Both the position numbers and the translations under genes were made by a program. A stretch of 64,000 bases of DNA, taken from assembly GCA_017461395.1 (NCBI GenBank), contig JAFTYF010000025.1:13713-77712 (forward strand). Reading direction: 5' to 3'. The DNA is from Ruminococcus sp. (GTDB lineage Bacteria; Bacillota; Clostridia; Oscillospirales; Ruminococcaceae). This document shows, in pieces, positions 47,548 to 53,258 of the stretch. The notes under the pieces are model-generated. The model saw only the letters and a program-made list of their open reading frames with translations. It made no database searches and was not told the DNA's origin. Every line of letters begins with the position of its first letter. Position 1 is the first letter of the stretch.

Positions 47548-48324
47548 ATGAACGGTAAAGTAAAGGTACTTATCGGCGATGATTCAGCCGAAACAGGAGT
47601 AAGCACGGCAAATAAGCTTCGTGAAAGAGGAATGTACGCTTACACAAGACGAAAGGACTGCGGTATCATCCTTGAATCTATCAAAAAGGATCCGCCTGAT
47701 GTTGCTGTGCTCGATATAAGCGCACAGAACGGCGATGTTGTGACTATAATGAAAAGAGTGAGAGAGCTAGGCGTGAAGTTTCCCGTATTCATCATCACAT
47801 CATCCTGCGACAACGAATTCATCGAAAGACAAGTCATGGACAACGGCGCTTCAAAGTTTCTGCTGAAGCCATACGACGCCGATGATCTCTGCGCCGCTAT
47901 AAATTCAGCTCTCGGCGACAAGGTCAGCAGTCTCAGCGACGACATGGAGCTTGTTGTCACGGATATAATACATCAGCTCGGCGTTCCGGCGCATATCAAG
48001 GGATATCACTACCTGAGAACGGCTATACTCTATTCTATCGAAAACAAATCGCTTCTTGACAGCGTCACCAAGCTTCTTTACCCTACCGTTGCGGAGATAT
48101 ATGAAACCACTTCCTCCCGTGTGGAGCGTGCTATCCGCCACGCTATTGAAATCGCATGGGACAGAGGAAATGTAGATACACTCAATTCCTTTTTCGGATA
48201 TACAGTCGATACCGGAAAAGGCAAGCCAACAAACTCTGAATTCATCGCTCTTATCACCGATAAACTGCGTCTGCGCTATAAATCAGCTCTGAGACAGAAT
48301 TATGAATTCAAGGTGAAAAGTTAA
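47548..48324 (+). CDS. spo0A: Sporulation master regulator Spo0A
   Basis: Receiver domain, then [37 protein letters not shown]. Confidence 0.95.
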
Positions 48325-48349
48325 CATTACAGGAGATAATAGTTACTGT

Positions 48350-48593
48350 CAGTATGTCGATAAATTATAAAAACAAACAATAGTGGGTTTCCAAAGGGTT
48401 GATAACCCTTTGGCGGAGTCCAGAGGCAGCGCCTCTGGTGGGGTGCGGGGTGAAACCCTGCTGTTGCCTTAGAAGCGCTTCGCAAGGGGTGAATTTCAAA
48501 ACAGTCCGGTGGACTGTTTTGAAAGAGGGGACGCCTTGCAAGTGAAGGCGTCCCCTACAAAACTGCCTTGCTTGTAACTTTTTCGACAATCTG
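48350..48593. mobile_element. MITE copy 1 (244 bp)
   Basis: 15-bp imperfect TIRs cagtatgtcgataaa / tttttcgacaatctg; 21-bp flanking direct repeats; homologous to 52903-53205; no coding capacity. Confidence 0.75.
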
Positions 48594-48635
48594 ACAGGAG
48601 ACATAAGCTCCTGTATATTAAAGGAGGAAAATCTT

Positions 48636-49142
48636 ATGTCATTCAGAAAAATCGAACTCAGCGAATTACAGTTCAATCCGTTCACAAAAATAGGAAAGGA
48701 ATGGATGCTCATTACAGGCGGAAATATGGACAGCTTCAACACAATGACAGCTTCATGGGGACAGCTTGGCGTACTCTGGAACAAAAATGTTCTCACCTGC
48801 TATATCCGCCCGAACCGCTACACATACGAATTTGTAGAAAAGGGAGACAGCTTTGCTGTTTCGTTCCTCGGCGAGCAGTTCCGCAGTGCGCTTTCATTCT
48901 GCGGTTCACATTCCGGCAGAGACTGCGACAAGATAAAGGAAACAGGTCTTACTCCCGTAGAAGCTGACGGCTGTGTGGCTTTCGATGAGGCTGATCTCGT
49001 GCTTGTATGCCGCAAGCTCTACAGCTACGACATGGAGGAAAAGGGCTTCCTCACAGACGACGGAATTCCGGCGCAGTTCTTCGGAACAGATCCTTACCAC
49101 AGAGCATATATCTGTGAGATCACCGCAGCATACTGCAAGTAA
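48636..49142 (+). CDS. Flavin reductase-like protein
   Basis: KEWMLITGG..NTMTASWG, FCGSHSGRDCDK, DPYHRAY. Confidence 0.85.
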   Translation: MSFRKIELSELQFNPFTKIGKEWMLITGGNMDSFNTMTASWGQLGVLWNKNVLTCYIRPNRYTYEFVEKGDSFAVSFLGEQFRSALSFCGSHSGRDCDKIKETGLTPVEADGCVAFDEADLVLVCRKLYSYDMEEKGFLTDDGIPAQFFGTDPYHRAYICEITAAYCK

Positions 49143-51821: not shown

Positions 51822-52874
<1,053 letters not shown>

Positions 52875-52902
52875 TTTTTACAGGGCGGTCAATGACTGCA
52901 CA

Positions 52903-53205
52903 GAGATTGTTGAAAAATTATATAAACAAATAATTATGGGATTCCAAAGGGTTTATAACCCTTTGGCGGAGTCCAGAGGCAGAGCCTCTGGCAGGGTGTG
53001 GGGTGCGGGTGTCCAGTGGACACCTCTGCGAAGCAGAAGCACCGACCGAACCGACAGGTGAGATTCAGCGTCCCACATTTGCCTTAGAAGCGCTTCGCAA
53101 AGGGTGAATTGAAAAACAGTCCGGTGGACTGTTTTTCAAGAGGGAACGCCTTGCAAGTGAAGGCGTTCCCTTAAAACATCTTGCTTGTATTTTTTCGACA
53201 GACTG
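52903..53205. mobile_element. MITE copy 2 (303 bp)
   Basis: TIRs gagattgttgaaaaa / tttttcgacagactg; 21-bp flanking direct repeats; same internal hairpins as copy 1 plus an extra internal module. Confidence 0.78.
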
Positions 53206-53258
53206 AGGGCGGTCAATGACCGCCCATTGCGCTATACTAAGAGTAAAGGAGTGCCGGA

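What the first reader, a model, noticed from the sequence alone, without database searches (positions are those of the whole stretch)
48329..48614. MITE 1 sits between two copies of a 21-bp hairpin after spo0A
The 244-bp element has 15-bp TIRs. It is flanked by acaggagataatagttactgt (48329-48349) and acaggagacataagctcctgt (48594-48614), 16/21 identical. The right copy is an intact hairpin (acaggag/ctcctgt) and the left copy is decayed. The interior is a chain of hairpins: ccaaagggtt/aaccctttgg, ccagaggc/gcctctgg, aaaacagtcc/ggactgtttt and gggacgcctt/aaggcgtccc. It starts 25 bp after the spo0A stop, so it may alter spo0A mRNA 3' processing.
Basis: seen in the sequence. Interest (0 to 1): 0.62.

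Follow-up and report, generated by a model that had tools for sequence, protein, structure and literature searches.

The report
Hairpin-duplicating miniature transposon after spo0A
The 244-bp insert behind spo0A is a real gene-less jumping element of the IS1182 transposon family that landed on a DNA hairpin and copied the whole hairpin to both of its sides; this habit is already known for the family, so it is a well-documented new example, not a new principle.

Summary
The element (48350-48593) has 12/15-complementary ends and four perfect internal hairpins. It lies between a 21-bp hairpin (48594-48614) and a 16/21 decayed copy (48329-48349).

The predicted empty site exists. A conspecific Ruminococcus strain (spo0A differs at 4 of 777 nt) and two sister species carry one hairpin, identical or near-identical to the right copy. 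At least eight metagenome contigs carry the filled site.

The element has about 8 copies in this genome. Its core occurs in 28 of 36 sampled Ruminococcus genomes and in 23 of 150 other genera of the family. Its end sequence, CAGTCTGTCGAAAAA, is the exact end of IS1182-family insertion sequences in relatives. This genome has no such transposase.

About 30 of 87 copies are flanked by 15-30-bp duplications of whole hairpins, five of them perfect. IS1272 (IS1182 family) is published as hairpin-targeting, so this is a new member of a known kind.

Three extras:
- The roughly 170-nt core keeps five hairpins by compensatory changes and folds on one strand. It is absent from Rfam.
- The copy at the element's left end decays far more often than the right one (about 14 to 3). 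This is unexplained.
- The right copy lies inside a promoter-like site for the downstream gene.

The parts
47548..48324 (+). spo0A (258 aa), the upstream neighbour. Its stop codon lies 4 bp before the left hairpin copy.
   Evidence: Pfam Spo0A_C 1.5e-43 and Response_reg 4.7e-12.
48329..48349 (+). Left copy of the duplicated target hairpin (TSD-L), decayed. It differs at 5 of 21 positions from the right copy and from the empty site, and the stem is lost.
   Evidence: -1.6 kcal/mol; empty sites.
48350..48364 (+). Left terminal inverted repeat, CAGTATGTCGATAAA.
   Evidence: It is 2 mismatches from the IS1182-family IS end CAGTCTGTCGAAAAA.
48385..48556 (+). Conserved structured core: H1 48391-48413, H2 48420-48438, a variable H3 around 48445-48462, a conserved unpaired stretch, H4 48494-48524, and H5 48526-48556.
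   Evidence: Alignment A1 of 74 copies. 98.1% of cells are paired, and 29 of 46 pairs have changes on both sides. Model R1 finds the core in 23 other genera.
48579..48593 (+). Right terminal inverted repeat, TTTTTCGACAATCTG (reverse complement CAGATTGTCGAAAAA).
48594..48614 (+). Right copy of the target hairpin (TSD-R), intact. It is identical to the single hairpin of the empty alleles.
   Evidence: 21/21 with G014 and with GCA_054272595.1; stems 14/14 with JAZNBR01.
48591..48619 (+). Sigma-70-like promoter match CTGACA-17-TATATT for the downstream gene. The -35 hexamer is formed from the last 3 bases of the TIR plus the first 3 of the hairpin.
   Evidence: 10/12 match. Empty alleles read ATTACA/TTTACA-17-TATATT/TATAAA/TATAAT. 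This is a consensus match only.
48636..49142 (+). Downstream flavin-reductase-like gene (168 aa).
   Evidence: Pfam Flavin_Reduct 6.2e-12.
52882..53226 (+). Second copy of the same MITE family with its own hairpin duplication, behind a GDP-mannose-dehydratase-like gene. TSD-L is 52882-52902, the element is 52903-53205 (with a 73-bp internal insert), and TSD-R is 53206-53226.
   Evidence: Empty sites in G014 and in conspecific contigs L280 and L281.

Best explanation
The element is a non-autonomous miniature transposon (MITE) that uses the ends of an IS1182-family insertion sequence and is mobilised in trans by that family's DDE transposase.

The transposase chooses DNA hairpins (palindromes that can extrude as cruciforms), not a primary sequence, and joins the element ends at the two feet of the hairpin. 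Repair of the two single-stranded gaps then leaves one full copy of the hairpin on each side. The 'target-site duplication' is therefore as long as the hairpin, 21 bp here.

In this lineage the element inserted into a conserved hairpin between spo0A and a flavin-reductase-like gene. The right copy kept the ancestral sequence and its context, including the promoter-like -10 box of the downstream gene. The left copy lost its stem.

- Shown: repeat family, TIR shared with the IS, hairpin duplications, empty sites, polymorphism within the species.
- Inferred: the cruciform-foot joining mechanism (taken from the published IS1272 model), mobilisation in trans, and any effect on expression.
For: 1. 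Copies. There are 8 copies in the genome. The core is in 28 of 36 sampled genomes of the genus, often more than 10 copies each.

2. Autonomous partner. An IS in G015:C11 starts with exactly CAGTCTGTCGAAAAA directly after a hairpin. It encodes a 446-aa protein scoring 414 bits on NF033551 IS1182-family transposase (cut-off 270), with Pfam DUF772 plus DDE_Tnp_1_6. Further ISs and fragments with the same end, each abutting a hairpin, are in G009, G032, G002 and G013.

3. Whole-hairpin duplications in about 30 of 87 collected copies. Perfect ones: 26 bp (L025), 23-24 bp (L017, L099), plus L108 and L147. A MITE with a different interior but the same TIR sits behind spo0A in G023 with a 22-bp hairpin duplication. 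A copy in another genus has a 26-bp one (L253).

4. Empty sites with one hairpin. For this copy: G014, JAZNBR01 and the conspecific GCA_054272595.1. For the second copy: G014, L280 and L281.

5. Gene context favours gene 3' ends: 28 convergent against 13 divergent.

6. Literature. IS1272/TnSha1 (IS1182 family) always integrate into hairpins or terminators of unrelated sequence (PMC4923244). The model in PMC5678879, Fig. 13, includes a route in which attack at the 5' feet of the cruciform duplicates the whole stem-loop.
Against: - No IS1182-family transposase is in this genome (0 hits). The assembly is 93% complete and fragmented, so mobility here is not current or cannot be shown.
- The full-length ISs seen in relatives are flanked by two different hairpins, not by a duplication. 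Whole-hairpin duplication is therefore shown for the MITEs, not for the IS itself.
- Published IS1272 insertions delete part of the hairpin and do not duplicate it.
- The left copy carries 5 changes, yet the empty allele of a conspecific strain differs from the window by only about 1% in the flanks. Simple post-insertion neutral decay does not predict this.
Confidence: 0.9

Rival explanations
1. The repeat is first of all a multicopy structured RNA gene, or an element that folds as single-stranded DNA. On this reading the roughly 170-nt core is the functional unit, and the IS1182 ends are only one of its vehicles. The core would be transcribed on the + strand and ended at the right-hand hairpin. 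This would explain why that copy is kept and the left one is not.
For: - Five hairpins are kept with 98.1% of cells paired. 29 of 46 pairs have changes on both sides, 0 of 500 shuffles reach this, and slid controls score at most 0.093 against 0.339.
- In the local stems, G-U outnumbers A-C 63 to 14. Six pair positions have at least 3 G-U; none has at least 3 A-C.
- The alifold energy is -67.7 on the + strand against -55.4 on the reverse strand.
- Unpaired stretches are conserved (CGCAAGGGGTGAAT).
- The core is found in 23 of 150 other genera, with compensatory changes in H4.
- Many copies have no recognisable TIR.
- The right hairpin copy is the better-folding one in about 14 cases against 3, whatever the orientation of the neighbouring genes.
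Against:
- No Rfam family matches. The best hit is Clostridiales-2 at 16 bits against a gathering score of 58.6.
- Promoter matches are weak consensus hits.
- Palindromes can be 'corrected' by template switching during replication, which mimics compensatory change without selection (my own knowledge).
- G-T is also the most stable mismatch in single-stranded DNA.
- This reading does not exclude the MITE reading. Empty sites and TIRs show that the unit moves as DNA.
Confidence: 0.25
2. The element is mobilised by an IS30-family transposase of the IS1630 type. This is the classic case of an IS that targets inverted repeats and duplicates 19-26 bp of them.
For: IS1630 makes long, variable duplications of 19-26 bp (PMC2853133, Fig. 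1 legend). That it is an IS30-type element that targets inverted repeats (Calcutt et al. 1999) is my recollection and was not read here. One IS30-family gene lies next to a MITE-like end in G015:C11.
Against: IS30-family transposases were found in only 3 of 41 genomes of the genus. None shows the CAGTCTGTCGAAAAA end as its own terminus. In G015:C11 the exact TIR begins the IS1182-family element, not the IS30 gene.
Confidence: 0.03
3. The true duplication is short: 8 bp (ACAGGAGA) here and 15 bp at the second copy. On this reading the rest of the 'left copy' is element or donor-derived sequence that resembles the hairpin by chance. Alternatively, the left copy is made imperfect during insertion.
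For: - The left copies differ from the right only in their element-proximal part.
- Conspecific empty alleles have flanks about 1% diverged or identical. Five changes in 13 nt are therefore far more than neutral decay since a recent insertion would give.
Against: - Other copies have 21/22, 24/26 and 25/28 identity across the whole hairpin, or perfect 23-26-bp duplications. Whole-hairpin duplication is therefore the family rule.
- 8/13 identity in the proximal part is above chance.
- The filled allele of the second copy is itself polymorphic within the species (one SNP and a 62-bp indel). This points to an older insertion.
- Precise excision through the identical 5' part of the repeats would regenerate exactly the observed empty allele.
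- No donor flank matching TAATAGTTACTGT was seen in the other copies.
Confidence: 0.2

Closest known systems
IS1272 and its derivatives TnSha1/TnSha2 (IS1182 family, staphylococci; PMC4923244, PMC5678879)
   Same: The transposase family of the autonomous partner is the same (NF033551; DUF772 plus DDE_Tnp_1_6). Targets are hairpins or terminators of unrelated sequence and size. Insertion occurs in either orientation. The published cruciform model includes a route that duplicates the whole stem-loop.
   Different: Documented IS1272/TnSha1 insertions delete part of the hairpin and leave no duplication. Here the hairpin is duplicated. This element has no transposase gene and is 244 bp long. Its interior is a conserved chain of hairpins not derived from the IS interior. 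The host is Ruminococcus.
IS1630 of Mycoplasma fermentans (IS30 family; cited in PMC2853133. Calcutt et al. 1999 is recalled from memory and was not read)
   Same: The outcome is the same: long, variable duplications (19-26 bp) that are inverted repeats.
   Different: The transposase family (IS30) and the TIRs differ. IS30-family genes are rare in this genus and are not bounded by this TIR.
Classical bacterial MITEs and palindromic repeats (Correia/NEMIS, RUP, ERIC, BOX, REP/BIME; own knowledge)
   Same: They are short, non-coding, multicopy and intergenic, can fold when transcribed, and can alter neighbouring gene expression.
   Different: Those have short fixed duplications (for example TA) or none, and different parents. 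None duplicates a whole hairpin of arbitrary sequence.
Earlier notes of this scan on 'IS1182-type MITEs that duplicate whole terminator hairpins' in other genomes
   Same: They describe the same anatomy and the same inferred parent family. One note also reports folding on one strand.
   Different: They concern other genomes and unrelated interiors. They are unchecked AI notes and were used as leads only.

Membership tests
MITE (non-autonomous DNA transposon) | Short, with no transposase or other conserved ORF | tested here: met
   The element is 244 bp. The only internal ORFs (48 aa on +, 143 aa on -) have no Pfam hit.
MITE (non-autonomous DNA transposon) | Terminal inverted repeats shared with an autonomous IS | tested here: met
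   The TIR is 12/15 complementary. The family consensus CAGTCTGTCGAAAAA is the exact end of IS1182-family ISs in G015, G009 and G002.
MITE (non-autonomous DNA transposon) | Target-site duplication, with empty sites holding one copy | tested here: met
   The 21-bp repeat is 16/21 identical. A single hairpin is present in G014, JAZNBR01 and the conspecific GCA_054272595.1.
MITE (non-autonomous DNA transposon) | Multiple dispersed copies and presence/absence polymorphism | tested here: met
   8 copies are in the genome. Both window copies are polymorphic within the species.
IS1182 family (as parent) | DDE transposase matching NF033551 / DUF772 plus DDE_Tnp_1_6 between the same TIRs | tested here: met
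   Met in relatives: G015:C11 scores 414 bits against a cut-off of 270, with the TIR at its start. Not met in the window's own genome: 0 hits.
IS1182 family (as parent) | Insertion into hairpins/palindromes of unrelated sequence | tested here: met
   About 30 different hairpins are duplicated. IS ends abut hairpins. Literature was read.
IS1182 family (as parent) | Mobilisation of the MITE in trans by that transposase | not testable with these tools
   This needs a transposition assay.
IS30 family, IS1630 type | IS30-family transposase bounded by the element's TIRs | tested here: not met
   NF033563 is in 3 of 41 genomes, and none has this TIR as its own end.
Any Rfam RNA family | Score at or above the family's gathering threshold | tested here: not met
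   There are 0 matches in the whole window at gathering thresholds. The best sub-threshold hit is Clostridiales-2, 16.3 bits against 58.6.
IS200/IS605-derived palindrome-associated elements | No TIR, no duplication, insertion 3' of a fixed tetra- or pentanucleotide | tested here: not met
   TIRs and duplications are present, and no common left-flank motif is seen.
Intrinsic terminator (as identity of the target hairpin here) | G+C-rich stem followed by a T-run | tested here: not met
   No terminator-like sites are found in 48100-48800. The hairpin is followed by ATATTAAAGG.

The most novel reading that the evidence does not exclude
The IS1182-type ends may carry a conserved passenger: a roughly 170-nt module of five covarying hairpins with conserved unpaired bases. 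It folds on one strand only, is absent from Rfam, and is present in many copies in at least 24 genera of the family. If it is a functional RNA transcribed from the left end and ended at the right-hand copy of the duplicated hairpin, that would explain why the right copy is preserved and the left one decays. A second non-excluded reading is that the left copy is already imperfect when the insertion is made, which would point to an asymmetric joining or repair step in hairpin-targeted transposition.
Probability: 0.2. Interest if true: 0.6.

Novelty: new member of a known kind. Interest (0 to 1): 0.35.

Why it matters
Hairpin-targeted insertion with duplication of the whole hairpin lets a transposon land behind genes without destroying the signal it lands on. 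It also explains many odd 'duplicated terminators' in Bacillota genomes.

Here the element sits directly behind the master sporulation regulator spo0A and is polymorphic within one rumen/gut Ruminococcus species. Natural filled and empty strains therefore exist, in which its effect on spo0A and on the downstream gene could be compared.

The element family is abundant enough to break assemblies: one contig begins at a copy. Its conserved, one-strand-folding core may be mistaken for, or may be, a structured RNA.

Tried and rejected
- Rfam at gathering and at permissive thresholds gave nothing usable.
- IS30/IS1630-type parent: the transposases are rare and not bounded by the TIR.
- Site-specific recombination (attL/attR) was rejected, because the flanking repeats differ completely between copies.
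- DGR-type repeats and IS200/IS605-type elements were considered from anatomy and rejected, because TIRs and a target duplication are present.
- Literature searches for 'IS1182 + hairpin + target site duplication' and for the IS4-family review gave no direct statement. The relevant papers (PMC4923244, PMC5678879) came as leads from earlier scan notes and were then read.
- Calibrating the age of the insertion on G000 against G014 failed. Divergence is mosaic: 13% at spo0A, 2% at the gmd 3' end, about 1.5% around the C54 copy.
- A fixed-pattern TIR search with 3-4 mismatches was too noisy and missed diverged ends. It was replaced by flank-to-flank alignment.
- No mutation signature was evident in the left-copy changes.

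Full report
**Observation**

- The gene at 47548-48324 is spo0A (Spo0A_C 1.5e-43 plus receiver domain). Its stop codon is 25 bp before position 48350.
- The repeat finder returns the 21-nt direct repeat 48329-48349 / 48594-48614 at 16/21.
- It also returns the four interior hairpins at 100% complementarity, and an inverted repeat that runs through the TIRs into the flanking hairpins (37 nt, 76%) because those hairpins are palindromic.
- The right copy folds at -9.2 kcal/mol and the left at -1.6 kcal/mol.
- The whole stretch folds far better than shuffles on either strand (z about -11).

**It is a repeat family**

- The genome is 2.08 Mb in 80 contigs and 93% complete. The window is C9:13713-77712.
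- It holds about eight copies at 82-91% identity. One lies in the same window at 52903-53205, and one sits at the very start of a contig.
- Aligned with their flanks, the copies share the ends (c/g)AGnnTGTCGAAAAA ... TTTTTCGACAnnCTG.
The left copy is AGGGCGGTCAATGACTGCACA and the right is AGGGCGGTCAATGACCGCCCA. The right copy is a perfect stem and the left is broken in its 3' arm.
- The core (about 48385-48556) is found in 28 of 36 other sampled genomes of the genus, typically ten or more copies each. It is not found by BLAST in 24 other families of the order, apart from one weak hit.
- Record titles identify the genus as Ruminococcus, R. flavefaciens group.

**Empty sites**

Three genomes without the element carry a single hairpin:

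| Genome | Relation to the window | Sequence after the spo0A stop |
|---|---|---|
| G014 | Spo0A 95% identical | TAA ttt ACAGGAGACATAAGCTCCTGT ataaaaggagg..ATG |
| Ruminococcus sp. JAZNBR01 | Spo0A 97% identical | ACAGGAGACACAGCCTCCTGT (same stems, different loop) |
| GCA_054272595.1 | spo0A 4/777 nt different | catt ACAGGAGACATAAGCTCCTGT atattaaaggaggaaaatcttATG |

- In GCA_054272595.1 both flanks are identical to the window.
- At least eight other metagenome contigs encoding the identical Spo0A carry the filled site, with 0-1 differences in 311 bp.
- The second window copy is also polymorphic within the species:
  - filled with a 73-bp internal insert (window, L278);
  - filled without that insert (L279);
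  - empty with window-type flanks (L280);
  - empty with G014-type flanks (L281).
- The second copy's site is also empty in G014.
- In every empty site the single hairpin equals the right copy.

**The parent**

- A search for the end sequence found an exact CAGTCTGTCGAAAAA in a G015 contig, directly after a hairpin.
- It is followed by an ORF of 446 aa. This ORF scores 414 bits on NCBIfam NF033551 'IS1182 family transposase' (cut-off 270) and carries DUF772, DDE_Tnp_1 and DDE_Tnp_1_6.
- The IS ends with ..TTTATTGACAAGCTG followed by another hairpin.
- Related full or partial ISs in G009, G032, G002 and G013 have the same end, each abutting a hairpin.
- The family is in 9 of 41 genomes of the genus. 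It is absent from the window's genome, so the copies here are probably immobile at present.
- IS30-family transposases, the parents of the classic hairpin-duplicating IS1630, are in only 3 of 41 genomes and are not bounded by this TIR.

**The duplication is a family trait**

- I collected 87 copies of the core from 20 genomes.
- About 30 have a recognisable direct repeat of 15-30 bp that is a hairpin, placed just outside the two ends.
- Five are perfect, for example AGATACTCCCAAAAGCGGAAGTATCT (26 bp) and AGACCTCACTGTATGTGAGGTCT (23 bp).
- A MITE with a different interior but the same TIR sits behind spo0A of G023 inside a 22-bp hairpin duplication.
- A copy in another genus has a 26-bp one (L253).
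- Neighbouring genes are convergent in 28 cases, tandem in 33 and divergent in 13. This is what landing on 3'-end hairpins predicts.
- The element occurs in both orientations relative to tandem genes (18 against 15).

**Comparison with the literature**

- PMC4923244 reports that TnSha1 and IS1272 (IS1182 family) always integrate into hairpins, many of them verified terminators, without sequence specificity. There the insertion partially deletes the hairpin. The paper also quotes Siguier et al. 2015 that some IS1182 members target palindromes.
- PMC5678879 shows that IS1272 targets inverted repeats of different sequence and size. [quoted passage not shown]
- PMC2853133 records the 19-26-bp variable duplications of IS1630.
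- The behaviour seen here is therefore the duplication outcome of a known targeting habit. Earlier notes of this scan describe the same kind of MITE in other genomes. I used them only as leads to these papers.

**Beyond the finding, 1: the core is under structural constraint**

- In an alignment of 74 copies, five hairpins are kept with 98.1% of cells paired.
- 29 of 46 pairs show changes on both sides. None of 500 shuffles reaches the observed values. Slid controls reach a covariation score of at most 0.093 against 0.339.
- G-U outnumbers A-C 63 to 14 in the local stems, and the + strand gives the better consensus energy. So one strand folds, as RNA or as single-stranded DNA.
- A covariance model finds the core, multicopy, in 23 of 150 other genera of the family.
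- The 3' half (GCGCUCCGCAAGGGGUGAAU, H4, AGAGG, H5) is the best conserved, with compensatory changes in H4.
- H4 resembles the subterminal hairpin of the IS ends: AAAAAGTCCAG..CTGGACTTTTT against AAAACAGTCC..GGACTGTTTT.
- Caveats:
  - copies are not independent;
  - replication template switching can perfect palindromes without selection (own knowledge);
  - there is no expression evidence.

**Beyond the finding, 2: left/right asymmetry**

- With the element oriented as in the window, the right hairpin copy folds better in about 14-15 insertions. The left folds better in 3, and the two are about equal in 11.
- The right-better cases occur with tandem genes of either direction. So the bias follows the element, not the genes.
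- For the two window copies, the empty alleles of conspecific strains have flanks that are identical or about 1% diverged (17/2281 and about 9/720). Yet the left copies carry 5/21 and 2/21 changes.
- Two readings remain:
  - The insertions are old, and the empty alleles are ancestral or arose by precise excision through the identical 5' part of the repeats (8 and 15 nt), which would restore exactly the observed sequence. The SNP and 62-bp indel between filled alleles of the second copy and the lack of a transposase favour this reading.
  - The left copy is imperfect from the start.
- I could not separate them. Divergence between G000 and G014 is mosaic, so it gives no clock.

**Beyond the finding, 3: local consequences**

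- No terminator-like site is detected in 48100-48800, and the hairpin has no T-run.
- The hairpin lies in the 17-nt spacer of a promoter-like match for the downstream gene:
  - ATTACA-17-TATATT in the conspecific empty allele;
  - TTTACA-17-TATAAA in G014;
  - ATTACA-17-TATAAT in JAZNBR01.
- After insertion the match reads CTGACA-17-TATATT, with CTG supplied by the end of the element.
- Only the right copy keeps the -10 box. At this locus that is a sufficient reason for its conservation.
- The stems are identical in all three empty alleles, despite about 0.3 divergence at four-fold sites between the window and the two sister species, G014 and JAZNBR01.
- spo0A transcripts must now either end inside the element (H4 is flanked by A- and T-runs) or read through about 290 nt of very stable structure.
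- These points are inference.

**Verdict**

- The element is an IS1182-type MITE that duplicated a whole hairpin. This is a new member of a known kind.
- Three open side questions remain: the conserved one-strand-folding core, the left-copy decay, and the effect on spo0A and its neighbour.

Noticed in passing
window 51837-52875 (TAG at 52632-52634): The GDP-mannose 4,6-dehydratase-like gene has an in-frame TAG. A conspecific metagenome contig has TGG (Trp) at that codon and an intact 345-aa product. This is a strain-specific nonsense mutation or an assembly error.
   Followed up: partly
window 52985-53060 (inside the second MITE copy); also G000:C24:1214-1478: A 73-bp insert interrupts hairpin H3 of the second copy and of the C24 copy. 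A conspecific strain (L279) has the same MITE at the same site without the insert. The interior is therefore modular and polymorphic, possibly through gene conversion between copies.
   Followed up: partly
L273 (JGI 3300022661 contig), after spo0A: The left part of this MITE is joined after hairpin H5 to the right end and flank of the C54 copy. This is either recombination between two MITE copies or a chimeric metagenome contig.
   Followed up: no
L053 (G023), L155 (roe-deer caecum MAG), L072, L054, L059: downstream of spo0A: The spo0A / flavin-reductase intergenic region has independently acquired other repeat elements in several Ruminococcus species. These include a different-interior MITE with the same IS1182 TIR and a 22-bp hairpin duplication.
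   Followed up: partly
G000:C12:852-1583: There is a second Spo0A-like gene (52% identity to the window's Spo0A) in the same genome. Similar paralogues occur in most genomes of the genus.
   Followed up: no
G000 against G014: spo0A region, gmd 3' end, C54 region: Nucleotide divergence between the two species representatives is strongly mosaic (13%, 2%, about 1.5%). This suggests frequent recombination or introgression in this Ruminococcus group.
   Followed up: partly
L018 (G010:C15) flanks: The two copies of a 27-bp duplicated hairpin have identical stems, but the loop is inverted (GTTTTTC against GAAAAAT). The left copy matches the reverse complement of the right 26/27.
   Followed up: no
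window 48313-48340 (+) and 48393-48364 (-): Two further promoter-like matches were found. One has a -10 (GATAAT) created by the changes in the decayed left hairpin copy and reads into the element. The other (TGGAAA-18-TATAAT) reads out of the left end, antisense to spo0A. Both are consensus matches only.
   Followed up: no
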